This document shows, piece by piece, positions 6,474 through 38,938 of a stretch of 41,668 nucleotides of DNA. The first letter of the stretch is position 1. Every line of letters begins with the position of its first letter. Made by a program: the position numbers and the translations under genes. A model generated the notes under the pieces. That model saw only the letters and a list, made by a program, of their open reading frames with translations. It made no database searches and was not told where the DNA came from. This DNA comes from a virus: the IMG/VR virus record IMGVR_UViG_3300045988_062043. The stretch is one strand, 5' to 3'.

Positions 6474-6620
6474 ATGGAGTGTAAATGCGCAAAATGCGGA
6501 GAAGTACGGGAAATCGTCTGTAGAGTAGATGGTGAGCCGTGGTGTGAGGAGTGCTTGGACAAAGCGTTGGGATTGATAGAGGAGGCAAAGCAGGCCAAAC
6601 ATGGACATCGGACTCATTGA
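6474..6620 (+). CDS. Small zinc-ribbon protein (48 aa)
   Basis: MECKCAKCGEVREIVCRVDGEPWCEECLDKAL. Begins 3 nt after the previous stop. Below the track cut-off. Overlaps the next gene by 20 nt. Confidence 0.4.
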   Translation: MECKCAKCGEVREIVCRVDGEPWCEECLDKALGLIEEAKQAKHGHRTH

Positions 6621-7476
6621 TGTGGATGGTCACAGTGGGTTCCCCAATTTGGCGTTGATGCGCTTGGCGGCATGGCACAAAGCGAGAGGTGACACCGTGG
6701 AGTGGTGGGATGGGTTTAAAACCTACGACCGGGTATACATGAGCAAGGTATTTACGTTTTCATCGGACGTGGAGACCGTCATCCGGGCGAATGAGGTGAT
6801 CCGTGGCGGTACCGGGTACAAGGACTATGGCAGTCTGCCGCCGGAGATAGAGGCAACCTCACCGGATTACAGCATGTATCCACACGTAACGCATGCGGTC
6901 GGATTTTTGACAAGAGGTTGCATCCGTAATTGTCCGTGGTGTATTGTGCCACGCAAAGAGGGGGAGATACGCCCGGCCTCCACCTGGGAGGAGATCAAGC
7001 GGCCTGACAGCCGTGACCTGGTGCTATTGGACAACAATGTCCTGGCCCATCCGCATGGCCTGGAGCAGATCGATAAGATGGGGCATGCGCAGGTACGGGT
7101 AGATTTTAATCAGGGTTTGGACGCCCGGCTAATTACGCCGGAGATTGCCAGACTGTTGTCAAGGCTGCGGTGGATACGGTTTGTGCGCCTGAGCTGCGAC
7201 ACGGCGTCTATGCTCCCGGTGATCGAGCAGGCGGCGGCCTATATGAGGGAGGCTGGGATTGCACCGTCACGATTTTGGTGCTACATGCTGGTGCAGGATG
7301 TGGACGAGGCACACCGGCGTGCGCTGGCACTGGACAAGCTTGGCATTACCCCGTTTGCGCAGCCGTACAGGGATTATGACGGCGGTGAGCCGACTACAGA
7401 GCAGCGCAGGTTCGCGCGATGGGTCAATATGCGGGCCGCGTTTAAGTCGTGTAAATGGGAGGACTTTAGAGGGTGA
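6601..7476 (+). CDS. Radical SAM domain protein, substrate unknown
   Basis: 291 aa. CxxxCxxC cluster motif in TRGCIRNCPWCIVP. Confidence 0.75.
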   Translation: MDIGLIDVDGHSGFPNLALMRLAAWHKARGDTVEWWDGFKTYDRVYMSKVFTFSSDVETVIRANEVIRGGTGYKDYGSLPPEIEATSPDYSMYPHVTHAVGFLTRGCIRNCPWCIVPRKEGEIRPASTWEEIKRPDSRDLVLLDNNVLAHPHGLEQIDKMGHAQVRVDFNQGLDARLITPEIARLLSRLRWIRFVRLSCDTASMLPVIEQAAAYMREAGIAPSRFWCYMLVQDVDEAHRRALALDKLGITPFAQPYRDYDGGEPTTEQRRFARWVNMRAAFKSCKWEDFRG

Positions 7477-7904
7477 TCATCTTGACAGATCATATTAGCA
7501 ATCAGCATGCCAAAGCCGACGCCGGAAAGCCGCGCCCCACGCTGGTACCGGTCTCGCTGATCGAGGCCGTGGCAGCGGTACGCATGTTTGGGTGCGCCAA
7601 GTACCACGATCCGGACAACTGGCGTCAGGTTGAGCCGCAGCGCTACAGGGATGCTTTGTACCGGCACTGGTTGGCTTATCTCAAAGGCGAGCAGTGCGAT
7701 CAGGAGAGCGGATTGCCTCACCTGTGGCATTTGGCCTGCAATGCGGCGTTTTTGATCGAGATGGAGGGAATGCTATCAGAGGGGAGAAAAGCCGCCCCTG
7801 TGATGGGGCGGCTTGGTGCGGGGGGGATGCGCGGTAGAGCGCACATTACAGCAGCTCCCTCACATCCACGTCCAGCGCGTCCGCCAGAGCCAGAGCATTG
7901 GTGA
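7473..7904 (+). CDS. DUF5664-like protein (family also annotated dATP/dGTP diphosphohydrolase N-terminal domain)
   Basis: DAGKPRPTLVP...FGCAKYHDPDNWR...YRHWLAYLKGEQCDQESGLPHLWHLACNAAFLIE fits the family pattern. The last ~44 codons read through a terminator hairpin and overlap the convergent gene, so the true C-terminus is doubtful. Confidence 0.65.
   Translation: MIILTDHISNQHAKADAGKPRPTLVPVSLIEAVAAVRMFGCAKYHDPDNWRQVEPQRYRDALYRHWLAYLKGEQCDQESGLPHLWHLACNAAFLIEMEGMLSEGRKAAPVMGRLGAGGMRGRAHITAAPSHPRPARPPEPEHW
7789..7814 (-). terminator. Intrinsic terminator of the reverse-strand cassette
   Basis: AAGCCGCCCC-TGTGAT-GGGGCGGCTT, a 10-bp stem, followed by TTCT on the minus strand. Lies 32 nt after the XRE stop. 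Confidence 0.6.
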
Positions 7905-8127
7905 GGGTGACGTTGCCCATCTTACCCTCGCCCTGCTCGATGCGCTGGATCTGTCTTTTATTGACGCCGGACCGCGCTGATAGCTCGTCGAGGCTCATGT
8001 GCTCACGGCGGCGGGCCCACTCCAGATTTGTGATTGGCTTATTGCGGCAGTCACGTCCGTAAGACACCAGGGGGCAGACGGTGCAGTCGCCGTCTGCCCG
8101 GATACAGTCTCCGTATTTACGTCTCAT
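7846..8127 (-). CDS. XRE-family HTH regulator with an N-terminal 4-Cys motif
   Basis: 93 aa. C8-x6-C15-x2-C18-x8-C27, then the HTH MSLDELSARSGVNKRQIQRIEQG. ATGA overlap with the upstream gene. Confidence 0.75.
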   Translation of the reverse strand: MRRKYGDCIRADGDCTVCPLVSYGRDCRNKPITNLEWARRREHMSLDELSARSGVNKRQIQRIEQGEGKMGNVTLTNALALADALDVDVRELL

Positions 8128-9096: not shown

Positions 9097-9125
9097 ATTA
9101 TACGCCAATATTGCCTAGTTGTCAA
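9097..9125 (-). promoter_or_regulatory. Consensus sigma-70-type promoter driving the reverse cassette
   Basis: The minus strand reads TTGACA (9125-9120), a 17-nt spacer, then TATAAT (9102-9097). It lies ~50 nt upstream of the ATG at 9048. Confidence 0.7.
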
Positions 9126-9132
9126 GACAAAA

Positions 9133-9141
9133 TGCTAAAAT
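9133..9141 (+). promoter_or_regulatory. Extended -10 promoter (TGcTAAAAT) for the rightward XRE gene
   Basis: TGCTAAAAT lies 30 nt upstream of the TTG start at 9171, back-to-back with the leftward promoter. Confidence 0.4.
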
Positions 9142-9170
9142 TATCTGATATTTTTTAGGAGGGGTGGCCG

Positions 9171-9401
9171 TTGAATGAGTTCCCGGAGCGGTTGAGGAAA
9201 CTGAGGGAGAGCAGGCGTCCAGTGCGGAGTATGACGGTGACATCACAGTTGATGGGGTTGCACCCTGATATGCTGAGACGGTATGAGCGGGGAGAAGTAG
9301 AGCCGTCAATGGGCGCATTATATAAGATTGCTGACTATTACGGCGTCAGCACAGATTACTTAATGGGCCGTACAAACTTTCCGTTTGTACATAGACTGTA
9401 A
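9171..9401 (+). CDS. XRE-family HTH protein
   Basis: 76 aa. TTG start with AGGAGG 8 nt upstream. LRRYERGEVEPSMGALYKIADYYGVSTDYLMGRTN is a typical XRE C-terminal pattern. Confidence 0.7.
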   Translation: MNEFPERLRKLRESRRPVRSMTVTSQLMGLHPDMLRRYERGEVEPSMGALYKIADYYGVSTDYLMGRTNFPFVHRL

Positions 9402-10110
9402 CCTTTTATCATCTCAAAAATAAGAGGGAAGCCCTCCCACAAAAGTGGGAAGCAAATCCGGTAATTATGCGACAATGGGAGCGTGGGGGCGAATGCCTCC
9501 CGCTCCCTTCCATTTCCTCCTCCTTTCTCATTGCCGGGCCTCCCTCCCGGCAGCGGCACGCAGGCAAAGCCGTAAACCTGCAACATAGCCCGTAAGGGCT
9601 ATATGTCCTTGTAGCTCAGAGGTAGAGCCTGAGGGTTAATAGGCCCTCTAGAGTCGCCGGTTCGAGTCCGGTCGAGGGCACAGAAAACCACGACGCCAGG
9701 TTTACGGAGTGGCGACAATGTCGTCGCTCTACTTTAGAGGCGGACTTGTAGCTCGCTCCAAAGGCCAAGGAGCTGACTGTGGAAAGACACTATACTTGTG
9801 GATCGGGGTCGCTCACCTCGCAAGTAAAATCATTAGCGGCCTGCCAGTAGCCATAGCTGGCCGACTCCGGGCAGAATGGCAGCCTTGAGAGTCAAAACCG
9901 CGCTATCCCGCTGAAAACTGCCGTGAGTACCTGTGCACAGGTCAATGCGGTGTGACAATCTAAGTGGGACAGCGCACATATGCCGCTCCTATCTGCATGA
10001 GGATATGGACGGCCCTATGGATGTGCCCCGAGCTGCGGCGGGTGGCCCGCAGCAAATCAGGAGAGGGCAGACCCCGCTCACCGCCCTCTCCTCAATAAAA
10101 CGAAACCACA
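9402..10110 (+). ncRNA. Candidate large structured noncoding RNA region (class undetermined)
   Basis: ~710 nt without a credible ORF in an otherwise gene-dense genome. Many GC-rich helices can be paired by hand: 9477-9507, 9533-9551, 9587-9600 (GUAA loop), 9843-9861, 9929-9942, 10032-10053, 10061-10090. Confidence 0.45.
9605..9680 (+). tRNA. tRNA-like element with a non-canonical anticodon arm (isotype undetermined)
   Basis: Acceptor GTCCTTG/CGAGGGC (7 bp, 2 G-U). D arm GCTC-AGAGGTA-GAGC. T arm GCCGG-TTCGAGT-CCGGT. The anticodon stem GAGGG/CCCTC closes an 8-nt loop TTAATAGG. Confidence 0.5.
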
Positions 10111-10125
10111 TGAGAGGTGGCGATC

Positions 10126-10509
10126 ATGGCTGCACGGCTGACGGATAGGCAAAAAAAGAAAATAGTGGCCGATTATCTGGAAACCGAAAGCTATAACGCC
10201 ACAGCGAAGAAAAACGGCGTTTGCGGGCAAACAGTGCGCCGTGTTGTTGAGGAATCTCAAGGAATCACCGAAAATCTCAAACGGAAAAAAGAGGAGAACA
10301 CCGCCGACATCCTGGCCTACATGGACAGCCAGCGGGGCATTGTGTGTGAGATCATCGGTAAGGGACTGGCTGCCCTGAATGACCCGGACAAGCTGGCGGA
10401 GGCCAAACCGGCGCAGATCACCACGGCAATCGGGACGCTGATTGATAAATGGGCGCTCGTCAAGGGCGAAGGGGAAGAGGGCAAGGTGCAGGTGATTATT
10501 GATGTCTGA
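10126..10509 (+). CDS. terS: Terminase small subunit
   Basis: N-terminal HTH (KKIVADYLETESYNATAKKNGVCGQTVRRVV). Position immediately 5' of terL. ATG 10126 has GAGAGGTGG 5 nt upstream (the track start 10117 is GTG). Confidence 0.7.
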   Translation: MAARLTDRQKKKIVADYLETESYNATAKKNGVCGQTVRRVVEESQGITENLKRKKEENTADILAYMDSQRGIVCEIIGKGLAALNDPDKLAEAKPAQITTAIGTLIDKWALVKGEGEEGKVQVIIDV

Positions 10510-11740
10510 GGTGCGGCTTTCTTCTGTCCTTGGCCCCGCTTTCCACTTGCTGGCTCGTGATGTATTTCGGCACGGCCACACGCACTACGACCTATCCGGC
10601 GGGCGCGGATCACTGAAATCCTCCTGTGTGTCTCTGCTGGTACCGCTTATCCTACTGACCAATCCAAACACTCACGCTCTAGTGCTCCGCAAGGTGGCAA
10701 ACACCATTCGGGACAGCGTGTATGCGCAATACCTGTGGGCCATCGGAGAACTGGGTATGGCGGCATACTGGGACGCTAAAGTACAGCCCATGGAACTGAT
10801 TTATAAACCGACAGGGCAAAAAATCATGTTCCGGGGCGCTGATGATCCTATGAAAATCAAGTCCATCAAAGTGCCGTCCGGATATATTGCTGTTACCCAT
10901 TTCGAAGAAAAGGATCAGTTTGCAGGGCAGGCTGAAATTCGCACTATCCTCCAATCGACCATGCGCGGCGGCTCCAAGTTTTGGAATTTTGAGAGCTACA
11001 ACCCGCCGATCAGCCGGGACAACTGGGCCAACAAGGACAGCCTGGAGGAGCGGGCGGACCGGATATGCCACAAAAGTACATACTTGGAGGCCCCGCCCGA
11101 ATGGCTGGGAGCACAGTTTTTAGCAGAGGCCGAACGCCTGAAAGAAACGGATGAGCGGGCGTATCGCCACGAATACTTAGGTGAGGCAGTTGGAACTGGC
11201 GGGAATGTGTTTGAAAACCTTGAGCTTCGGGAAATCAAGGACGAGGAAATTTCTCATTTCGACCGGATTTATCAAGGAACAGACTGGGGGTATTTCCCTG
11301 ATGCCTATGCTTTTATCCGTTTACATTACGACAAAACGAGGGAAACCATTTATCTGATCGACGAAAACTACGTTCATAAACAGAGTAATGAAGCTACTGG
11401 AAAATGGATAAAAGGGAAAAAGTACACAGACGCATACATCATTTGTGATAGTGCGGAGCCGAAAAGTGTGGCAGATTACCGGGCATTAAGCCTCCCAGCG
11501 AAATCTGCCGTCAAGGGTCCGGGTAGCTTGGACTACTCCATGAAATGGCTTGCCCGTAGAAAAATCATTATCGACCGCAGAAGGACCCCGCACGCTTATG
11601 ATGAGTTCGTAAATTACGAATATGAGCGAAATAAGGACGGAGAAATCATAAGCGGATACCCTGATGAGAATGACCATGTGATTTCGGCTGTCCGTTATGC
11701 GCTTGAGCCTGCATATAGGAGGATGGGTGTAATTGCGTAG
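10502..11740 (+). CDS. terL: Terminase large subunit (PBSX/Terminase_3-like)
   Basis: 412 aa. Walker A-like SGGRGSLKSS. ALVLRKVANTIRDSVY and a C-terminal nuclease region with DENDHVISAVRYAL. Confidence 0.9.
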   Translation: MSEVRLSSVLGPAFHLLARDVFRHGHTHYDLSGGRGSLKSSCVSLLVPLILLTNPNTHALVLRKVANTIRDSVYAQYLWAIGELGMAAYWDAKVQPMELIYKPTGQKIMFRGADDPMKIKSIKVPSGYIAVTHFEEKDQFAGQAEIRTILQSTMRGGSKFWNFESYNPPISRDNWANKDSLEERADRICHKSTYLEAPPEWLGAQFLAEAERLKETDERAYRHEYLGEAVGTGGNVFENLELREIKDEEISHFDRIYQGTDWGYFPDAYAFIRLHYDKTRETIYLIDENYVHKQSNEATGKWIKGKKYTDAYIICDSAEPKSVADYRALSLPAKSAVKGPGSLDYSMKWLARRKIIIDRRRTPHAYDEFVNYEYERNKDGEIISGYPDENDHVISAVRYALEPAYRRMGVIA

Positions 11741-11747
11741 GCCTGAA

Positions 11748-12191
11748 ATGAAAAAGAAATACCCACGTATTTACAAGGTGTGGCAGAGCATCCGCCAGAG
11801 GTGCAATAACCCAAACGACAAGAACTACTTTGATTACGGCGAAAGAGGAATATCGGTTTGCAAAGAATGGGACGAGTCTCCTGAGGCGTTTGTCATGTGG
11901 GCGCTCGAAAATGGATACAGAGACGACTTGAGTATAGACCGCATTGATGTAAACGGGAATTACAGCCCCGATAATTGCAGGTGGGCAACAGCCACACAAC
12001 AAGCAAGAAATAAGCGAATTGAGAAAATTAACAAAACCGGGGTAAATGGCGTTCACATGGATAGGGGTAAATATAGGGCAATTATCTATGTGGATAGCAA
12101 AAAAATAGACCTTGGAAGATACGAGACGCTTGAAGAAGCAAAATCTGCCAGGAAACGTGGAGAAGCTCTTTATTGGGGAGTGACAGCATGA
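11748..12191 (+). CDS. AP2-domain / degenerate HNH homing-endonuclease-like protein
   Basis: YKVWQSIRQRCNNPNDKNYFDYGERGISVCKEW, SIDRIDVNGNYSPDNCRWAT, and an AP2-like segment (GVHMDRGKYRAIIYVDSKKIDLGRYETLEEA). Inserted between terL and the portal gene. Confidence 0.65.
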   Translation: MKKKYPRIYKVWQSIRQRCNNPNDKNYFDYGERGISVCKEWDESPEAFVMWALENGYRDDLSIDRIDVNGNYSPDNCRWATATQQARNKRIEKINKTGVNGVHMDRGKYRAIIYVDSKKIDLGRYETLEEAKSARKRGEALYWGVTA

Positions 12192-13606
12192 CCATCATCG
12201 AGAAGCTGAAAGAACTGGGCTTTGCCACTATCAGCGAGGACTTTTACCGCAAAGTTCAGGAGTGGAAAAGCTGGTATGTGGGAGATGTGAAGGGCTTCCA
12301 CCGGTACAAGGTCCGAAACGGAACGAGCATGGTCCGATGCAAGCGGTACACTCTCAACATGGGTAAGAAAATCCCGGAGGACTGGGCAAACCTCCTGATG
12401 AATGAGAAGGTAAAAATCACTTTGGAGGGGCAGAAAGAGCAGGCGTTCGTTGACCGAGTGTTCACCGAAAATAATTTCCCGGTCAAAGCAAACGAGATGC
12501 AGGAAAAGGCGTTTGCTCTTGGGACAGTGGCTTTTATTCCGCGTGTGGTGGGAATGGAGGCAAAGGAGACTGGGCCCGTTCCAGGCAGCGCAAGAGGCAT
12601 TGTGATGGACTATGTGACCGTGGAGCACATCTGGCCGCTGGCGTGGCAAAACGGAATCATTACGGAGTGCGCTTTTGAAAGCATTGTTACCGTAAACGGA
12701 GAGCAATACTGTTACCTGCAAATCCACCACAAGGTCAACGGGCTGTATGACATTGAGAACCGACTATATAAATACCGGAACAACAATGTGGACACCGAAG
12801 TGGGCTTAACCTCTGTGCCAAACTTTAAACGGGTGCCACGGGTGGTACATACAGGGTCTGACCGGCGGCAGTTTGTCATTGACCGGCCCAATATCGCAAA
12901 CAATTTTGACGATTCCCCACTTGGAATATCCATCTATGCAAATTCCATTGATGTTCTCAAGGGCGTAGATGTAGCCTATGACAGTTACGTCAACGAATTT
13001 GTCCTAGGGAAAAAGCGCATCATGGTCAAACCATCTGCCATGAAATACCTAGACGGAGAGCCGGTCTTTGACAGCGACGATTTGGCCTATTATGTGCTCC
13101 CAGAGGATGTGAGTGACGGAGCAGTTATTACCCCAATCGATATGACCCTCCGCACACAGGAGCACAATACAGGCATCCAGGACCAGCTCAATTTGTTGTC
13201 CAGTAAGTGCGGTTTCGGAGAGACCTATTATCGCTTTGATGGTGGGAGCATCACCACGGCGACACAAGTTATCAGCGAGAACTCCACCATGTTCCGCACG
13301 ATCAAAAAACATGAAATCATTCTGGAGCAGGCCCTAATTGAACTGTGCCGTATCATCATCCGCCTAGGCAACACAGCCATGAACGCTGGGCTAAATGAAG
13401 ATGTGGAGATTTCTATTGACTTTGATGATTCCATCATCGAGGACAAGCAGTCTGATTTTGCTCGTGATATGCAACTCCTAAACGCCGGAATCATGAACGA
13501 CTGGGAGTTCAGGGCTAAATGGATGAATGAGGACGAAGCCACGGCAAAGAAGATGTTGCCGAAGATGGAGGATATGACGGACGAGGAGGAAGAGGAGATT
13601 GAATGA
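12188..13606 (+). CDS. Portal protein (SPP1 gp6-like)
   Basis: 472 aa. ATGA overlap with the upstream gene. Position, size and an acidic C-terminus (MTDEEEEEIE). Confidence 0.8.
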   Translation: MTIIEKLKELGFATISEDFYRKVQEWKSWYVGDVKGFHRYKVRNGTSMVRCKRYTLNMGKKIPEDWANLLMNEKVKITLEGQKEQAFVDRVFTENNFPVKANEMQEKAFALGTVAFIPRVVGMEAKETGPVPGSARGIVMDYVTVEHIWPLAWQNGIITECAFESIVTVNGEQYCYLQIHHKVNGLYDIENRLYKYRNNNVDTEVGLTSVPNFKRVPRVVHTGSDRRQFVIDRPNIANNFDDSPLGISIYANSIDVLKGVDVAYDSYVNEFVLGKKRIMVKPSAMKYLDGEPVFDSDDLAYYVLPEDVSDGAVITPIDMTLRTQEHNTGIQDQLNLLSSKCGFGETYYRFDGGSITTATQVISENSTMFRTIKKHEIILEQALIELCRIIIRLGNTAMNAGLNEDVEISIDFDDSIIEDKQSDFARDMQLLNAGIMNDWEFRAKWMNEDEATAKKMLPKMEDMTDEEEEEIE

Positions 13607-15213
13607 GGTATCCATTCACCCCAGAACTTCTCGATGCCCTCCCCGAAGAGCTGGCCGAGCTTTACCGCAGCCTGGAGGCAACCCTCCTTGACGAGATATG
13701 CTCCCGCCTGAAGCTGTCCGGTCAACTCAACGAGGTTACGGTGCAGGACATACGGGCCCTTCGCTCCCACGGCATCGACCTGACGGAGATCGAAAAGGCG
13801 ATCCAGCGCACCGCAAGCATCAGCCAGAGCGACCTCGAAAAGCTCCTGGACGATGTTGTGGAGCGCAACCAAAGGTATTACCAAGAGGTCATGGACCTTA
13901 CTGGGGTGACTGCTCCTGAGACGCTGGTGAGTGCCGCCGACATCGCAGCCATTATGGCACAGGCGCAGAGAGAAATTGGCAACCTGACCCGATCTATGGG
14001 CTTTCTGGTGGACAATGGCCGGACAATGCTGGCCCCGGCGAGGGCCTATCAATGGGCGCTGGAAAATGCAGAAATGCAGGTCATGAGCGGGGCCGTCTCG
14101 TACAACCAGGCCATCAAAAACGCCGTCAAACAGCTTGCAGACAGCGGAATACGCAAGGTTGACTATGAGAGCGGCCACCGTGACCACATTGATGTGGCTG
14201 CCCGCCGGGCAGTGATGACAGGCGTGTCCCAACTCTGCGCCAAATACACAGAGCAAAGTGCGGAGTATTTGGAAACGCCCTATTTTGAAATATCCGCCCA
14301 CATCGGGGCGCGAGATACCGGCGTCGGCTGGCAGAACCACAAGGCGTGGCAGGGCCGGGTTTACTCCATCAGGGCCGGGGACAAATATCCGAGCATCTAC
14401 GAGGTATGTGGGCTTGGCTATGTGGACGGCCTGGAGGGTGCTAACTGTCGGCATAAACGATTTGCTTTTGTGGATGGCGTGATGGAGCGCACATATACCG
14501 ACGAGGAGCTGGCCCACATAGATGATGGGCACGACGTGGACTTTGAGGGAAAGCACTACACGGCTTATGAGGCCACACAGAAACAGCGGCAGATCGAGCG
14601 AACCGTCCGCAAGCTGAAACGTGAACAGACAGCATATAAGGCCGCAGGGCTGACAGAGAACGCACAGGCGGTGACTGCCCGCATCCGGCGGCTGAACAAA
14701 GAATACAAAGCGTTCAGCAAGGAAGCGGGGTTGCCGATGCAGATGGAGAGGATGAGGGTATATGAAGAAGTAAAAGCAGTTGAAAAACCTGCTGTTCGTG
14801 ATACAATAGAGAAAACGAACGGCGGGGGTTCTCCTGTGCATACTGTCGGAAGAATTGATGTTGAGAAATATAAGGTAGTCGCAGATAAAATCCAGACCGA
14901 TGAAGTCATTATTACTGATGAGCGGATCGAGCACATTAGAGAACGCCATCCAAATGATTTTGAACGGTATTCACAATATCTCAAACAGATTGTTGAAGAA
15001 CCTGACTATATTCTGGAGGCAAATAAGCCAAATACAGCATTTCTTTTGAAAGAGTTTGTAGAGGCGGATGAAAGATTTCAGCTTATTTTGAGACTTGCTG
15101 TTGAGGGGGACATTCCGGGATACAAGAACTCTATCATTACATTTCTCAAAGTGGAGGAGAAGCGTTACAGAAGATACTTGCGCACGAAGAAAATGCTTTA
15201 CAAATCTGAATAA
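13603..15213 (+). CDS. MuF/SPP1-gp7-like head morphogenesis protein fused to a C-terminal PBECR-type (Barnase/EndoU/RelE-like) nuclease-toxin domain
   Basis: 536 aa. MuF core (EISAHIGARDTGVGWQNHKAWQGRVYS). The C-terminal ~150 aa (IITDERIEHIRERHPNDFERYSQYLKQIVEEPDYILEANKPNTAFLLKEF) lies in a visibly AT-richer segment. Confidence 0.75.
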   Translation: MRYPFTPELLDALPEELAELYRSLEATLLDEICSRLKLSGQLNEVTVQDIRALRSHGIDLTEIEKAIQRTASISQSDLEKLLDDVVERNQRYYQEVMDLTGVTAPETLVSAADIAAIMAQAQREIGNLTRSMGFLVDNGRTMLAPARAYQWALENAEMQVMSGAVSYNQAIKNAVKQLADSGIRKVDYESGHRDHIDVAARRAVMTGVSQLCAKYTEQSAEYLETPYFEISAHIGARDTGVGWQNHKAWQGRVYSIRAGDKYPSIYEVCGLGYVDGLEGANCRHKRFAFVDGVMERTYTDEELAHIDDGHDVDFEGKHYTAYEATQKQRQIERTVRKLKREQTAYKAAGLTENAQAVTARIRRLNKEYKAFSKEAGLPMQMERMRVYEEVKAVEKPAVRDTIEKTNGGGSPVHTVGRIDVEKYKVVADKIQTDEVIITDERIEHIRERHPNDFERYSQYLKQIVEEPDYILEANKPNTAFLLKEFVEADERFQLILRLAVEGDIPGYKNSIITFLKVEEKRYRRYLRTKKMLYKSE

Positions 15214-15378
15214 AACGGCTATAATTCAAGTAGAATAGAATGGTTCTTTGAGGTGGACAATTTCGTGGCATCCACACGCCGATGGTATTGACAGGGGAAA
15301 CCCGAGAGATGCAGGAGAACGCCACGCCTGCCAAAGAACCAGACTACGAGGGAAGGAGGCCGCAGAGATGTGGCTTCC

Positions 15379-15401
15379 TTTTCCCTTGCTCGGAGGGAAA
15401 A
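15379..15401 (+). promoter_or_regulatory. Hairpin sequestering the RBS and start codon of the KTR gene
   Basis: TTTTCCCT (15379-86) pairs perfectly with AGGGAAAA (15394-401). It overlaps the SD GGAGGG and the A of the ATG. Confidence 0.4.
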
Positions 15402-15550
15402 TGATTAAAGAAGATATTTACGGGAAAAAGTGGTATTGCTGTCCCCATTGCGGAAAGTCTCTTTTTCCAGTCCGAACAGATACCAAAATACAACATATGC
15501 CATTTCGATGTAAGGCTTGTAAGCACGACATTGAAGTAAATATTGCATAG
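15401..15550 (+). CDS. Cysteine-rich KTR-type zinc-ribbon protein (49 aa)
   Basis: WYCCPHCGKSLFPVRTDTKIQHMPFRCKACKHDIEVNI matches the Cys_rich_KTR pattern. GGAGGG RBS. Confidence 0.6.
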   Translation: MIKEDIYGKKWYCCPHCGKSLFPVRTDTKIQHMPFRCKACKHDIEVNIA

Positions 15551-35645: not shown

Positions 35646-36950
35646 TCAGATTAAATCAAAATCGGCCACTGAATCGTTGGATAGATAGATCTTTTTGACT
35701 GTTTTGCGCCAAAAAGATTGTTTGCCGTCCCGTGGCAGGTCATCATACAATTGTCTCCAGTCGCCCCAGAAGCGGGATTTTAATGCCTCGATGTCAATAT
35801 CCGGGACATCTTCTGGGATTGCCGCCAGCTCATCATTAAGCGCCCTAAACTGCCTTTTATAATCCTGCATCGAAATCAGATCAGATATATAGAGCTCCGA
35901 CAGCTTGGACAATTTCCGCTGGATCGCGTCTCTTTTGGGCTTGTGCGATATAGCTCTCTGCTCATTGCGGCTAATGATTGATGTCTGTACTTTTGCTTCT
36001 ATGCGGTCCAGCATGTACGCCTCAATTTTCTCTTCATTGTAATTTTTGTTGTTAGAGCATCCAGTCTTTTTCCTGCTAGAACTGCACCCGTAGTAATGAG
36101 TCTCTTTGTGCACTCGTGATACCGAATACCCTCCCAATCGATTACCGCACTTGGGGCAGATTAAGAGCCCGGAAAAGAGATACACCCGGCTTTGTGTCGT
36201 CTTCCGGACGATACATCCACGGAGAGAGTTCGCTTTTCTGTATTCATCCGGAGAAATGATGGCGGGTATTGTTATTCCGGCAAATTTCCCCATGTAAGCG
36301 GGGTTAGAAAACATGTACCGCGCCGAAGTGTACGATAGCCCAAGCTCCGGATATTCCCTAATTACCTTCGAGATTGATCCAGCTTCCAGGTACATATCAA
36401 ACGCGGCGCGGACCATAGGCCCGGTCACCGGGTCAATGACCACCGATTTTCCGTCCAATTTGTATCCTTTTGGTACATTACCAGTTATGGGCTCGTTTCT
36501 CTCTTTCTTACCCTCAAAAACAAATTTAATCCGTTCGCTGGTCCGGTCCGCTTCGTCCTGAGCGACACTGAGCATGATATTAACTTTAAATCTACCGGAG
36601 GCTGTGACCGTTTCGTAGTCCTCTTGTGTAGCTCTCCAAGTAACGTTATGGGCGTCAAGGACACGTTGCACCTCATAATAATCGGAGATATTCCGGAACC
36701 ACCGGTCCAATTTTATGAACAAGACCATATCAATTTTATCGGATTCAATGTCCGCCAATAAGCGCATAAATTCTGGCCGCTTTGTATATCTTTTACGAGC
36801 ACTCTTCCCGGCATCTAAATAGCAATCCACAACTTTCATGCCGTGTCCCTTTGCATAATCTCTTAGGTGGGCTTCCTGCTCATCCATGGACAGGCCGTGC
36901 CTTGCTTGCTCCTCGGTGCTCACGCGGATATATATAGCTGCTCGCGTCAT
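35646..36950 (-). CDS. int: Large serine recombinase (phage integrase)
   Basis: 434 aa. AAIYIRVSTEEQ carries the catalytic Ser motif in a resolvase domain. Recombinase domain, zinc ribbon (CPKCGNRL...YYGCSS...C) and a coiled-coil C-terminus. Confidence 0.9.
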   Translation of the reverse strand: MTRAAIYIRVSTEEQARHGLSMDEQEAHLRDYAKGHGMKVVDCYLDAGKSARKRYTKRPEFMRLLADIESDKIDMVLFIKLDRWFRNISDYYEVQRVLDAHNVTWRATQEDYETVTASGRFKVNIMLSVAQDEADRTSERIKFVFEGKKERNEPITGNVPKGYKLDGKSVVIDPVTGPMVRAAFDMYLEAGSISKVIREYPELGLSYTSARYMFSNPAYMGKFAGITIPAIISPDEYRKANSLRGCIVRKTTQSRVYLFSGLLICPKCGNRLGGYSVSRVHKETHYYGCSSSRKKTGCSNNKNYNEEKIEAYMLDRIEAKVQTSIISRNEQRAISHKPKRDAIQRKLSKLSELYISDLISMQDYKRQFRALNDELAAIPEDVPDIDIEALKSRFWGDWRQLYDDLPRDGKQSFWRKTVKKIYLSNDSVADFDLI

Positions 36951-38464: not shown

Positions 38465-38766
38465 TTTCCTCTTCCTCCTTATTTTATCCGCACCCTGCGG
38501 CAAAGATGCTACATGATACCACACTAAAAGTCCAATAAACGTCTCTTTTGTTGTTGCCCTATAAATTCTACAGGCTTAACAAAATAGATAGAATTTATTT
38601 GGGAGGTGTGGCTATTGCTTTAATGGAACTAATGTTCTAAAATATAAACCATAGTAAAAGTTCACAAATAGTTCACCATTCACTTATTTACATTTTGTGA
38701 CAATATATGCTAATATAATCCAAAAGAAACATTTTCCAAAAAATAAGTATGGGAGGGCGCAAAAAG

Positions 38767-38901
38767 ATGACGCCGAGGAAAGAACCTGTTGATACACTCA
38801 GGAAAGAAATTGAACTTGTCCTTGCTCGGAATAAAAATGAAAACTATTTAAAAGCTCTCCTCACGCGTGCCCTTATCCTTGAAAAACTACATAAGGAATA
38901 A
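38767..38901 (+). CDS. Small hypothetical protein (44 aa)
   Basis: MTPRKEPVDTLRKEIELVLARNKNENYLKALLTRALILEKLHKE with GGGAGGG 9 nt upstream. Followed directly by a terminator. Confidence 0.4.
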   Translation: MTPRKEPVDTLRKEIELVLARNKNENYLKALLTRALILEKLHKE

Positions 38902-38906
38902 TCAAT

Positions 38907-38938
38907 AAGGCCCCGGGGAACCGGGGCCTTATTTTTTT
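38907..38938. terminator. Bidirectional terminator shared by the small ORF and the repressor gene
   Basis: AAGGCCCCGG-GGAA-CCGGGGCCTT (10 bp, perfect), then ATTTTTTT on the + strand. The repressor stop codon lies in the 3' arm. Confidence 0.75.

What the first reader, a model, noticed from the sequence alone, without database searches (positions are those of the whole stretch)
9402..10110. ~710-nt ORF-free, hairpin-dense region with an embedded tRNA-like element just upstream of terS: candidate large ornate ncRNA
Seen: in a genome where most genes abut or overlap (ATGA/GTGA junctions), about 710 nt between the XRE stop (9401) and the terS RBS carry no credible ORF. The only ORFs are RBS-less fragments (9356-9586 minus, 9933-10148 plus).

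The stretch is full of GC-rich helices I could pair by hand:
- 9477-9507: 13 bp, one bulge, GAAU loop.
- 9533-9551.
- 9587-9600: AGCCC-GUAA-GGGCU, a GNRA-type loop.
- 9605-9680: the tRNA-like cloverleaf.
- 9843-9861, with a competing CUGCCA/UGGCAG pairing to 9877-9882.
- 9929-9942: a perfect 14-nt palindrome.
- 10032-10053.
- 10061-10090.

Established: very large structured RNAs of the GOLLD and ROOL classes occur in prophages of Firmicutes and are frequently adjacent to, or enclose, tRNAs.

Inference: this is either a member of such a class or an unclassified large phage RNA. It lies between a regulator and the packaging genes, so late-phase expression is plausible.
Basis: partly seen in the sequence, partly recalled or inferred. 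Interest (0 to 1): 0.8.

Follow-up and report, generated by a model that had tools for sequence, protein, structure and literature searches.

The report
Structured RNA array heading phage late genes
The gene-free stretch before the phage's DNA-packaging genes holds a regulated promoter and about 640 bases of conserved, intricately folded non-coding RNA: two tRNA look-alikes and a roughly 210-base pseudoknotted RNA of a family that no database describes and whose job is unknown.

Summary
Region 9402-10116 has no conserved ORF, folds far better than shuffles (z = -5.9), and contains a tRNA-like cloverleaf.

It is not ROOL, GOLLD or any other Rfam 15 family. It is probably not one 710-nt RNA.

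- **9435-9476** looks like DNA-level control. A dyad sits exactly 40.5 bp upstream of an extended -10 element (TATGcGACAAT). At least 15 lineage-specific dyads keep this geometry and track the variant of the adjacent XRE protein.
- **From about 9480** runs a modular structured leader of the late operon:
  - hairpins H1-H4;
  - a tRNA-like element derived from tRNA-Ile with an 8-nt anticodon loop that cannot decode (9605-9680);
  - a 207-nt RNA (9774-9980) with an H-type pseudoknot, two kissing hairpins and a long closing helix;
  - an acceptor/T-arm-like minihelix (9982-10013);
  - two GC hairpins.

A covariance model built without the window hits it at 113 bits. Across 62 distinct homologues, 21 of 41 pairs show compensatory changes (0 of 500 shuffles match).

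Genuine tRNAs abut the element in relatives, which suggests RNase P/Z punctuation. Close relatives lack the 207-nt module, so it is accessory.

Hosts are Flavonifractor-group gut bacteria. Function is unknown.

The parts
9171..9401 (+). Small XRE-type HTH protein gene (76 aa), the candidate regulator of the promoter downstream
   Evidence: Pfam HTH_3, E = 5e-10. A homologue lies 200-1000 nt upstream on the same strand in most loci that carry the RNA.
9435..9450 (.). Dyad TCCCAC-AAAA-GTGGGA, candidate operator, centred at -40.5 relative to the -10 hexamer
   Evidence: At least 15 different dyad sequences in relatives are all centred at -40.5. The dyad type tracks the XRE variant.
9466..9476 (+). 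Extended -10 promoter element TATG-c-GACAAT, with no -35 consensus
   Evidence: The hexamer varies among lineages as GACAAT, GAAAAT, TAGAAT or TAAAAT. The TG extension is present only when the hexamer starts with G. Promoter activity is inferred, not shown.
9477..9507 (+). Hairpin H1 (13 bp, one bulge, GAAU loop), starting directly after the -10 hexamer. Possible terminator or insulator for read-through from the XRE promoter.
   Evidence: z = -5.3. Lineage-specific covarying versions include GGGAGCA/UGCUCCC, GGCUGUGG/CCACAGCC and GGGUGUAGAGG/CCUCUACACCC.
9508..9532 (+). Pyrimidine-only (C/U) tract with CCUCC repeats
   Evidence: Read directly from the sequence. Present in all lineages in variable form. 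Function unknown.
9533..9602 (+). Leader hairpins: H2 (9533-9551), two overlapping helices (9554-9572 and 9560-9581), and H4 (9585-9602, GNRA loop). They end in AUAUG just before tRNA-like 1.
   Evidence: The H4 loop is GUAA, GGAA or UUAC in relatives. The block is nearly invariant in close relatives and is replaced by other hairpins in distant ones.
9605..9680 (+). tRNA-like element 1: a cloverleaf with canonical acceptor, D and T arms. The anticodon arm is extended and has an 8-nt loop, UUAAUAGG.
   Evidence: Rfam tRNA 41.4 bits. ARAGORN 'tRNA-???'. Homologous to the canonical tRNA-Ile(GAU) of L071. The anticodon stem covaries, and the loop is 6 or 8 nt in relatives.
9681..9773 (+). Spacer hairpins, including GGCGAC-AAU-GUCGUC (9711-9725) and P1, GCUCC-AAAGGCCAA-GGAGC (9755-9773)
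   Evidence: P1 covaries (GUCUC/GAGGC, GCUCC/GGGGC) and is absent in some lineages.
9774..9980 (+). 207-nt pseudoknotted RNA of a new family:
- UGAC.
- P2, 9779-9790.
- H-type pseudoknot: S1 9794-9798 with 9821-9825; S2 9807-9813 with 9835-9841.
- Hairpins K1 (9843-9861) and K2 (9863-9893), with kissing loops GCCAU 9850-9854 and AUGGC 9876-9880.
- D domain, 9900-9980: GCGCU-AU-CCCGCU-GAAAACUGCCG, variable hairpin 9929-9942, then CGGUGUGACAAUCUA-AGUGGG-AC-AGCGC-ACAUA.
   Evidence: Model R1, built without the window, hits 9774-9982 at 112.8 bits, E = 1e-32. The single-sequence fold of 9900-9980 reproduces the comparative D-domain structure.
9982..10013 (+). tRNA-like element 2: a minihelix with a 7-bp acceptor-like stem, a 5-bp arm and loop GCAUGA. 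It occupies the position taken by a genuine tRNA in relatives.
   Evidence: Folds at -14.7 kcal/mol, z = -2.9. Relatives have GCCUCUC-CUCGCC-GCAUGA-GGCGGG-CGGUGGC-ACCA, with covarying stems and an encoded ACCA. tRNA-Thr or tRNA-Gln starts at the same offset in L071, L225 and L026.
10032..10053 (+). Hairpin E, GCUGCGG-CGGGUGGC-CCGCAGC
   Evidence: Its few variants give no clear covariation. Found only in relatives that have the same terS type.
10060..10091 (+). Hairpin F (9-11 bp GC-rich stem, variable loop, no U tract), about 20 nt upstream of the terS ribosome-binding site
   Evidence: The stem is kept through G-C to G-U changes, and the loop is replaced in relatives.
10112..10128 (+). terS ribosome-binding site (GAGAGGUGG) and ATG at 10126: the start of the late/packaging operon
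   Evidence: terS has HTH-type domains; terL is Terminase_3.

Best explanation
The gap is a regulated non-coding transcription unit at the head of the late (packaging) operon.

1. **Start of transcription (inferred).** A dimeric regulator, most likely the adjacent XRE protein, binds the dyad at -40.5. It controls a sigma-A-type promoter that has an extended -10 element and no -35. Transcription would start near 9480-9483.
2. **Insulation (inferred).** The full H1 hairpin can form only in transcripts that read through from the XRE promoter. It could therefore insulate the late operon from early transcription.
3. **A structured array (shown).** The roughly 640-nt transcript consists of independently folding modules.
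4. **Processing (inferred).** The two tRNA-derived modules are a cloverleaf that cannot decode and an acceptor/T-arm minihelix. I propose they act as RNase P and RNase Z punctuation, as real tRNAs do at the same positions in relatives. Cutting there would split the precursor into discrete stable RNAs and separate them from the terS mRNA.
5. **The released RNA.** The main product would be the 207-nt RNA. Its universally conserved core is the D domain, a long irregular helix with invariant internal-loop bases: GAAAAC opposite GUGACAAUCUA. I take this RNA to be an accessory, trans-acting RNA or RNP made late in infection. The invariant internal loop is the likely binding surface for a protein or another RNA.

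Shown: conservation, structure, covariation, strand, modularity, tRNA adjacency and promoter geometry. Inferred: XRE binding, the transcription start, RNase P/Z cleavage and action in trans.
For: **Structure**
- z = -5.9 for the whole region.
- Model R1 was built from 14 relatives, without the window. It hits the window at 112.8 bits.
- On 62 distinct homologues, 94.5% of cells are paired against 31-46% in slid controls. 21 of 41 pairs carry double-sided changes. No shuffle of 500 reaches the observed value on any of the five measures.
- On an alignment made by MAFFT alone, 92.6% of cells are paired against 36-46%.
- Pseudoknot helix S2 was tested on an alignment not fitted to it. It is 85.6% paired, with 3 of 5 pairs changed on both sides.
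- The kissing loops occur as six different complementary pairs.

**Strand**
- G-U to A-U and G-U to G-C exchanges keep pairing only on the + strand, for example at pairs 440:544 and 424:564.

**Punctuation**
- Neighbouring tRNAs are always co-oriented with the element. tRNA-Thr and tRNA-Gln lie 0-2 nt after its 3' end (ACAUA), and tRNA-Arg lies 2 nt before its start (UGAC).
- The motif AUAUG precedes tRNA-like 1, the minihelix and the real tRNAs.
- tRNA-like 1 is homologous to a canonical tRNA-Ile.

**Promoter**
- The hexamer varies towards TATAAT, with a compensating TG extension. At least 15 different dyads are all centred at -40.5 and sort with the XRE variant.

**Accessory nature**
- L115, L096, L102 and L125 join the leader directly to the minihelix, with no tRNA-like 1 and no 207-nt RNA.

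**Context**
- The order XRE upstream, terS downstream is conserved.
Against: - There is no transcript, 5'/3'-end or RNase P/Z cleavage data.
- H1 begins 0-3 nt after the -10 hexamer, so a normal start site would cut off its 5' arm. My reconciliation (H1 acts only on read-through transcripts) is untested.
- The dyad lies about 35 nt downstream of the XRE stop codon. Its correlation with the XRE variant could therefore reflect linkage alone.
- The invariant D2 sequence UGUGACAAU resembles the promoter's own extended -10 (TGCGACAAT), and I cannot explain this.
- The K1/K2 pairing in the window's own subtype (Type II) is ambiguous: CUGCCA/UGGCAG competes with it, and the few Type II variants do not decide.
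- Alignment A5 is fitted to the model, which inflates the percentage of paired cells.
- No function is demonstrated.
Confidence: 0.5

Rival explanations
1. Cis-acting leader. The structured RNA stays attached to the late mRNA and controls it. Possible modes are processive antitermination of RNA polymerase (as with HK022 put RNA or EAR), attenuation, or control of terS translation, with the CU-rich tract sequestering purine-rich ribosome-binding sequences.
For: - The array lies between a regulated promoter and terS, and no U-tract terminator separates them.
- The order XRE, RNA, then the late genes is conserved.
- The CCUCC-rich tract (9508-9532) and the purine-rich F hairpin and RBS pair in the global MFE fold.
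Against: - Close relatives with the same XRE and terS lack the 207-nt RNA and tRNA-like 1.
- In other relatives, 1-3 kb of unrelated genes separate the RNA from terS.
- tRNAs abutting the element would be excised by RNase P/Z, which would sever any tether.
- The CU-tract to RBS pairing does not covary: UUUCUCAU against UUUCCCAU, with an invariant RBS.
Confidence: 0.18
2. Self-cleaving ribozyme for tRNA maturation. The 207-nt RNA, or its D domain, cleaves at its own end to release the neighbouring tRNA or tRNA-like element, as theta (minimal HDV-like) ribozymes of gut phages do at tRNA 3' ends.
For: - The element's ends coincide with tRNA ends within 0-2 nt.
- It has a pseudoknotted fold with invariant unpaired bases.
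- Gut-phage tRNAs are known to carry adjacent ribozymes (bioRxiv 10.1101/2023.06.13.544163).
Against: - No Rfam ribozyme family matches, even at E <= 10.
- The pseudoknot lacks a P3/L3 hairpin and does not start at the junction with the tRNA, so it does not have the HDV topology.
- RNase P and RNase Z already account for tRNA-end processing.
Confidence: 0.1
3. One large ornate RNA of the ROOL/GOLLD kind. The whole ~640 nt functions as a single, possibly multimeric, RNA that encloses tRNA-like domains. The complementary loops would then make contacts between molecules.
For: - The overall fold is strongly favoured.
- The setting is a prophage with tRNAs nearby.
- The covarying loop-loop complementarity could equally act between molecules, as in ROOL/GOLLD cages (PMC12286853, found; only its abstract was read) or phi29 pRNA (from general knowledge).
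Against: - No ROOL, GOLLD or pRNA model hit.
- Modules occur separately and in different combinations: D alone, K1-K2-D, P2-D, or the leader joined directly to the minihelix.
- Canonical tRNAs replace the tRNA-like modules in some relatives.
Confidence: 0.1
4. DNA-level site. The conserved blocks and dyads are the pac/cos packaging site or other protein-binding DNA, not RNA.
For: - The region is immediately upstream of terS/terL (Terminase_3).
- The E and F blocks travel with the terS type.
- Part of the region (9435-9476) does look like DNA-level control.
Against: - Compensatory changes, including G-U pairs specific to the + strand, occur in 21 of 41 helix positions, plus a pseudoknot.
- tRNA genes are co-oriented and interleaved with the blocks.
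- The main module is absent in phages with the same terminase and lies kilobases from terS in others.
Confidence: 0.05
5. Decaying tRNA cluster. The region holds pseudo-tRNAs and remnants with no present function, conserved only through recent common descent.
For: tRNA-like 1 derives from tRNA-Ile and has lost a usable anticodon loop.
Against: - Near-invariant blocks persist across lineages whose flanking XRE proteins are only 45-75% identical.
- Stems covary.
- The non-canonical loop UUAAUAGG is itself conserved over five lineages whose stems differ.
Confidence: 0.04

Closest known systems
ROOL and GOLLD RNAs (large ornate RNAs of Firmicutes prophages, often next to tRNAs)
   Same: Phage-encoded, co-oriented with and adjacent to tRNAs, a complex pseudoknotted fold, unknown function, and loop-loop complementarity that could mediate multimerisation.
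   Different: No match to either covariance model. The conserved unit is much smaller (about 80-210 nt). It is modular and flanked by tRNA-like punctuation. Hosts are restricted to the Flavonifractor group.
Theta (minimal HDV-like) ribozymes next to tRNAs of gut phages (bioRxiv 10.1101/2023.06.13.544163)
   Same: A structured, pseudoknotted RNA abutting phage tRNAs within 0-2 nt in gut Caudoviricetes. The implied role is in tRNA-end formation or late-phase regulation.
   Different: The fold is different: no P1 at the junction, no P3/L3, and no HDV-family hit. It is 3-4 times larger. Self-cleavage has not been tested.
Phage T4 tRNA operon with co-transcribed stable 'species 1 and 2' RNAs, and tRNA-punctuated precursors such as MALAT1-mascRNA (from general knowledge)
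   Same: Non-tRNA stable RNAs are transcribed together with tRNAs or tRNA-like elements and released by RNase P/Z.
   Different: Here some punctuation elements have lost decoding ability. The unit heads the late operon under a dyad-controlled promoter. Processing is inferred only.
phi29 packaging RNA (pRNA)
   Same: A phage RNA encoded beside the packaging genes, with two loops whose complementarity covaries between relatives.
   Different: No Rfam pRNA hit. This phage has a classical terS/terL terminase. Close relatives package without the module.
Class II activator-dependent promoters (CRP/FNR at -41.5, lambda cI at PRM) and late activators encoded just upstream of terS in Firmicutes phages (RinA/ArpU type), from general knowledge
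   Same: A dyad centred near -41, no -35 consensus, a regulator gene immediately upstream, and the late operon downstream.
   Different: The regulator is a 76-aa XRE/HTH_3 protein, not a RinA/ArpU family member. Neither binding nor activation has been tested.

Membership tests
ROOL RNA (Rfam) | Match to the ROOL covariance model | tested here: not met
   No hit at gathering score on the whole window, nor at E <= 10 with permissive filters on 9300-10200. None in 12 homologous loci.
GOLLD RNA (Rfam) | Match to the GOLLD covariance model | tested here: not met
   Same searches.
Other large or catalytic RNAs in Rfam 15 (HEARO, OLE, group I/II introns, tmRNA, RNase P, 6S, pRNA, HDV-like, hammerhead, twister and others) | Match to any of the 4227 covariance models | tested here: not met
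   One search lists only tRNA plus five sub-threshold chance-level hits, each 16-27 bits against gathering scores of 50-78. ARAGORN finds no tmRNA.
tRNA (functional, decoding) | Cloverleaf with acceptor, D and T arms | tested here: met
   RF00005 at 41.4 bits against a gathering score of 29. Aligns with the canonical tRNA-Ile(GAU) of L071.
tRNA (functional, decoding) | 7-nt anticodon loop with U33 and a 3-nt anticodon | tested here: not met
   The loop is the 8-nt UUAAUAGG, and ARAGORN reports 'tRNA-???' (aata). Rfam alignment shows a 10-nt insert where 7 nt are expected. Relatives have 6-nt loops, reported as anticodon 'ga'.
tRNA (functional, decoding) | Aminoacylation, CCA addition, RNase P/Z processing | not testable with these tools
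   CCA is not encoded after 9680 (the sequence continues CAG). The minihelix of relatives encodes ACCA.
Theta / minimal HDV-like ribozyme | Nested double pseudoknot with P1 starting at the cleavage site next to the tRNA 3' end, a P3/L3 hairpin, and a catalytic C in J4/2 | tested here: not met
   No HDV-family hit. S1/S2 form a simple H-type pseudoknot that starts about 20 nt into the element, with only 6-8 nt between S2-5' and S1-3'.
Theta / minimal HDV-like ribozyme | Self-cleavage | not testable with these tools
   Requires an in-vitro assay.
New RNA family defined here (model R1) | UGAC, P2, S1/S2 pseudoknot, K1/K2 kissing hairpins and D domain with invariant GCUGAAAACUGCC and GGUGUGACAAUCUAAG | tested here: met
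   The window scores 112.8 bits, E = 1e-32, with a model built without it. The D domain is reproduced by a single-sequence fold.
Activator-type (class II) regulated promoter | -10 hexamer with A at position 2 and T at position 6, varying towards TATAAT | tested here: met
   The hexamer is GACAAT, GAAAAT, TAGAAT or TAAAAT. A TG extension is present only with G-initial hexamers.
Activator-type (class II) regulated promoter | Regulator dyad centred near -41.5, overlapping a missing -35 | tested here: met
   At least 15 distinct dyads are all centred at -40.5.
Activator-type (class II) regulated promoter | Transcription start and regulator binding | not testable with these tools
   No transcript or binding data. 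The simple two-hexamer scan finds nothing here because there is no -35.

The most novel reading that the evidence does not exclude
The 207-nt RNA (9774-9980) would be a new class of functional phage RNA with its own biochemical activity, made at the onset of late gene expression. Three forms are open:
- a multimerising scaffold or packaging cofactor that uses its covarying loop pair, like pRNA or the ROOL/GOLLD cages;
- an RNA-polymerase or sigma-factor ligand whose invariant, partly single-stranded UGUGACAAU mimics the operon's own extended -10 element, in the manner of 6S or put RNA;
- a new ribozyme.

In each case the non-decoding tRNA-like elements would be dedicated processing handles or decoys.
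Probability: 0.2. Interest if true: 0.85.

Novelty: new variant of a known kind. Interest (0 to 1): 0.66.

Why it matters
**A new RNA family.** The finding adds a well-supported complex-folded RNA family, absent from Rfam 15, to the small set of ornate, tRNA-associated phage RNAs whose function is a long-standing open question.

**It is testable.**
- It occurs in a cultured, inducible prophage: Flavonifractor phage Castelnaud of the OMM12 strain F. plautii YL31.
- Natural deletion variants exist.
- It has a candidate regulator-operator pair.

**tRNA genes can decay into something else.** The tRNA-Ile-derived element keeps its acceptor, D and T arms under selection while it loses decoding ability.

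**Annotation.** Three 'hypothetical protein' calls in the Castelnaud record lie over this RNA and are probably spurious.

Tried and rejected
**Searches that found nothing**
- Rfam at gathering score and at E <= 10 found only tRNA.
- BLAST against 50,697 phage records found only an 83-nt match, in phage Castelnaud.
- Full-text searches for the conserved sequences and for related descriptions found no prior description.
- The catalogue of about 10,000 candidate viral structured RNAs (PMC10690425) may contain it anonymously, but its supplements are not held.

**Readings rejected**
- Small-ORF coding.
- GCGACA as a -35 element. The hexamer 17 bp downstream (AATGCC, TACCCT or TATACC) lacks the essential final T, judged by inspection.
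- D2's TGTGACAAT as a second dyad-controlled promoter. The variable hairpin upstream of it is not at a fixed distance (centre at -30.5 in the window, variable elsewhere), and the motif does not vary as a -10 element would.
- CU-tract pairing with the terS RBS, which shows no covariation.

**Inconclusive**
- The motif TGNGACAAT occurs 3 times in the window against 1.4 expected, which is not significant.
- RNAalifold alone cannot see the pseudoknots.
- The covariance-model alignment mis-aligns K1/K2 of the window's subtype, so these helices were checked by local folding instead.
Full report
**1. The observation**

The window is a temperate siphovirus-like genome. It encodes a serine recombinase (35646-36950), terS, a Terminase_3 terL and a portal protein.

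- A 76-aa XRE/HTH_3 gene (9171-9401) and terS (ATG at 10126) are separated by 724 nt.
- ARAGORN finds one 'tRNA-???' at 9605-9681 with a 4-nt 'anticodon'. Rfam scores 9605-9680 as tRNA at 41.4 bits.
- The + strand folds at -290.8 kcal/mol against -250.3 +/- 6.8 for dinucleotide shuffles, z = -5.9. The minus strand gives z = -4.3.

**2. Known families**

A whole-window Rfam scan at gathering thresholds finds only this tRNA and a skipping-rope RNA elsewhere. A permissive scan of 9300-10200 (E <= 10) adds only chance-level fragments. There is no match to ROOL, GOLLD, HEARO, OLE, introns, tmRNA, RNase P, 6S, pRNA or any ribozyme. Twelve homologous loci give the same answer.

**3. Homologues**

- terS relatives in IMG/VR gave 80 loci. 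Two DNA-pattern scans added about 165 more.
- BLAST and block mapping show the same conserved blocks in the same order in more than 100 viral contigs. Variable hairpins separate the blocks.
- The blocks stay nearly invariant where the flanking XRE proteins are only 45-75% identical.
- The species-representative genome set places the element in Flavonifractor plautii, Pseudoflavonifractor, Muriventricola aceti and two uncultured Eubacteriales.
- The only cultured phage that carries it is Flavonifractor phage Castelnaud. There it lies under three 'hypothetical protein' calls between a 'transcriptional regulator' and the HNH/terS genes.

**4. The 207-nt RNA (9774-9980)**

Reading the alignments gives this architecture:
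- UGAC.
- A small hairpin P2 with loop GAAAGA. Its stem occurs as GUG/CAC, GCG/CGC, GCUG/CAGC or CCCCG/CGGGG.
- An H-type pseudoknot.
  - S1 is CCGGG/CCCGG in most relatives and ACUUG/CAAGU in the window.
  - S2 is GCGUC/GACGC, with variants GCGCC/GGCGC, GUGCC/GGCAC and CCGUU/AACGG. The window has GGUCGCU/AGCGGCC.
- Two hairpins, K1 and K2, with complementary loops.
- A long closing 'D domain': GCGCU-AU-CCCGCU-GAAAACUGCC-N, a variable hairpin, then N'-GGUGUGACAAUCUA-AGCGGG-A(C)-GGCGC-ACAUA.

Statistical support:
- On a MAFFT-only alignment of 14 relatives, the full structure including both pseudoknots has 92.6% of cells paired, against 36-46% when the partners are slid.
- A covariance model built from those 14 sequences, without the window, hits the window at 112.8 bits.
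- Over 62 distinct hits, 94.5% of cells pair. 21 of 41 pairs show changes on both sides, in 125 cells against 34 expected. No shuffle of 500 reaches the observed value on any measure, including the two that relatedness alone rarely inflates. This alignment is fitted to the nested structure, so its paired percentage is generous. The MAFFT-only result and the pseudoknot test do not share that bias.
- S2 is not part of the model. It is 85.6% paired, with 3 of 5 pairs changed on both sides.
- The K1/K2 loops occur as GUCAU/AUGAC, GUCAUAG/CUAUGAC, CAUGG/CCAUG, GCCUC/GAGGC, GUCU/AGAC and, in the window, GCCAU/AUGGC.
- One-sided changes of G-U to A-U or G-C keep pairing only on the + strand.
- A single-sequence fold of 9900-9980 reproduces the D domain.

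One weak point remains. The few variants of that subtype do not settle which pairing is real.

**5. Modularity**

- The D domain is the universal unit. Some loci have D alone, some K1-K2-D and some P2-D. Others carry an extra domain between K2 and D.
- Four close relatives (L115, L096, L102, L125) join the 5' leader directly to the minihelix. They lack both tRNA-like 1 and the 207-nt RNA.
- The module is therefore accessory. It is not needed for late transcription or packaging in those phages.

**6. tRNAs and tRNA-like elements**

- All tRNAs near the element are co-oriented with it.
- tRNA-Thr or tRNA-Gln starts 0-2 nt after ACAUA in L071, L222, L225, L026 and L163. tRNA-Arg ends 2 nt before UGAC in L091.
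- In the window the corresponding 3' position holds a minihelix (9982-10013; 7-bp and 5-bp stems, loop GCAUGA; z = -2.9). Relatives have covarying stems there and an encoded ACCA.
- tRNA-like 1 aligns along its acceptor, D and T arms with the canonical tRNA-Ile(GAU) of L071.
- Its anticodon arm has been remodelled. The stem covaries: GAGGG/CCCUC, GCGGG/CCCGC, CCCG/UGGG or CCCC/GGGG. The loop is 8 nt (UUAAUAGG, kept in five lineages) or 6 nt (AAGAUA, AUGAUC). It cannot decode in the standard way.
- AUAUG precedes tRNA-like 1, the minihelix and the real tRNAs.
- From this I infer that RNase P and RNase Z punctuate a polycistronic precursor. No data here show the cleavage.

**7. The 5' end is promoter and operator**

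- Every lineage has, just before hairpin H1, the hexamer GACAAT, GAAAAT, TAGAAT or TAAAAT.
- G-initial hexamers are preceded by (T/C)ATGC, a TRTG-type extension. T-initial hexamers are not. This is the variation expected of a -10 element. There is no -35 consensus.
- With the hexamer set at -12 to -7, a perfect dyad is centred at exactly -40.5 in at least 15 sequence-unrelated versions, whatever the arm length (5-10 bp) or spacer.
- Each dyad type goes with one XRE variant. This could be co-evolution of binding specificity, or simply linkage.
- This geometry is that of a class II regulator site.
- H1 begins 0-3 nt after the hexamer, so transcripts from this promoter would lack part of its 5' arm. 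H1 is followed by a C/U-rich tract, which is U-rich in some lineages.
- My reading is that H1 terminates or insulates read-through from the XRE promoter, while transcripts from the dyad-controlled promoter escape it. This reading is untested.

**8. What it most likely is and does**

The region is a regulated non-coding unit at the head of the late operon. It produces tRNA-punctuated, stable structured RNAs.
- The 207-nt RNA is an accessory, probably trans-acting RNA or RNP.
- Its invariant internal-loop bases (GAAAAC opposite GUGACAAUCUA) are the likely binding surface.
- The rivals are weighed in their own sections: a cis-acting antitermination or translation leader, a self-cleaving ribozyme, one large multimeric RNA, a packaging DNA site, and decaying tRNAs.
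- The strongest arguments against a cis-acting or DNA role are the natural deletion variants, the variable distance to terS, and the strand-specific covariation.

**9. Unexplained**

- The invariant D2 sequence UGUGACAAU resembles the operon's own extended -10 (TGCGACAAT). A third TGTGACAAT lies in a promoter-like AT-rich region at 38696.
- The tRNA-like loops have short complementarities elsewhere in the region. I did not test these.

**10. Verdict**

- This is a new family within the known kind of tRNA-associated ornate phage RNAs.
- It has a testable regulatory context and an experimental host.

Noticed in passing
window 15243-15339 (+): A skipping-rope RNA (Rfam RF02924, 53.2 bits against a gathering score of 36.7). 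It lies just after the 13603-15213 ORF and overlaps the start of the 15248-15550 ORF in the structural module.
   Followed up: no
window 9097-9125 (-) and 9126-9170: A perfect sigma-70-type promoter, TTGACA-17-TATAAT, on the minus strand. It faces a leftward operon (9048 down to 7846) that ends with a second XRE/HTH_3 gene (7846-8127). It is divergent from the XRE gene at 9171, giving a switch-like arrangement in the middle of the genome.
   Followed up: partly
window 6601-7904 (+): A radical-SAM-like ORF (weak Pfam hit) is followed by a protein with the dATP/dGTP diphosphohydrolase N-terminal domain (PF18909, E = 7e-28). This suggests a DNA base-modification module just upstream.
   Followed up: no
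window 38696-38704 (+), with 38768-38935: A third TGTGACAAT lies in a 36% GC intergenic region, 64 nt upstream of a 44-codon + strand ORF. That ORF is followed by a strong terminator-like hairpin (38909-38935) next to the lysogeny genes. It may be another promoter of the same extended -10 type.
   Followed up: partly
window 11733-12191 (+): A 152-aa ORF between terL and portal has no Pfam hit. Its sequence looks like an AP2/HNH-type homing-endonuclease DNA-binding protein, on my reading only.
   Followed up: no
L071 2944-3013 (+): A related phage carries an int-alpA RNA (Rfam RF02996, 51.8 bits) upstream of an antirepressor-like gene.
   Followed up: no
L039 1985-2088, L193, L232, L159: Some relatives carry a second kind of unit: UGAC-CCCCG-GAAAGA-CGGGG followed by a non-canonical tRNA-like element. 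That element has acceptor GGAACCU/AGGUUCC and T arm GCAAG-UUCAAAU-CUUGC, and ARAGORN does not call it. Other lineages have a D-arm-less tRNA-like element, GCCGCAG...GGAGGGUCGCGCCCUCCAUGCGGCA.
   Followed up: partly
window 9636-9643 against 9988-9992 and 10014-10018; L002 tRNA-like loop against the terS start: The remodelled anticodon-like loops have short complements nearby. The window's UAAUAGG can pair with CCUAU (two sites). The AGAUA loop of L006-type relatives can pair with UAUCU in the minihelix. The CAUGAUCG loop of L002 can pair with CGAUCAUG at the terS start codon. These could be chance matches.
   Followed up: no
L001 (ON453903.1 22244-22744): Three short 'hypothetical protein' CDS annotated in phage Castelnaud (WAK79708, WAK79709, WAK79710) overlie the promoter, leader and pseudoknotted RNA. 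They are probably spurious.
   Followed up: partly
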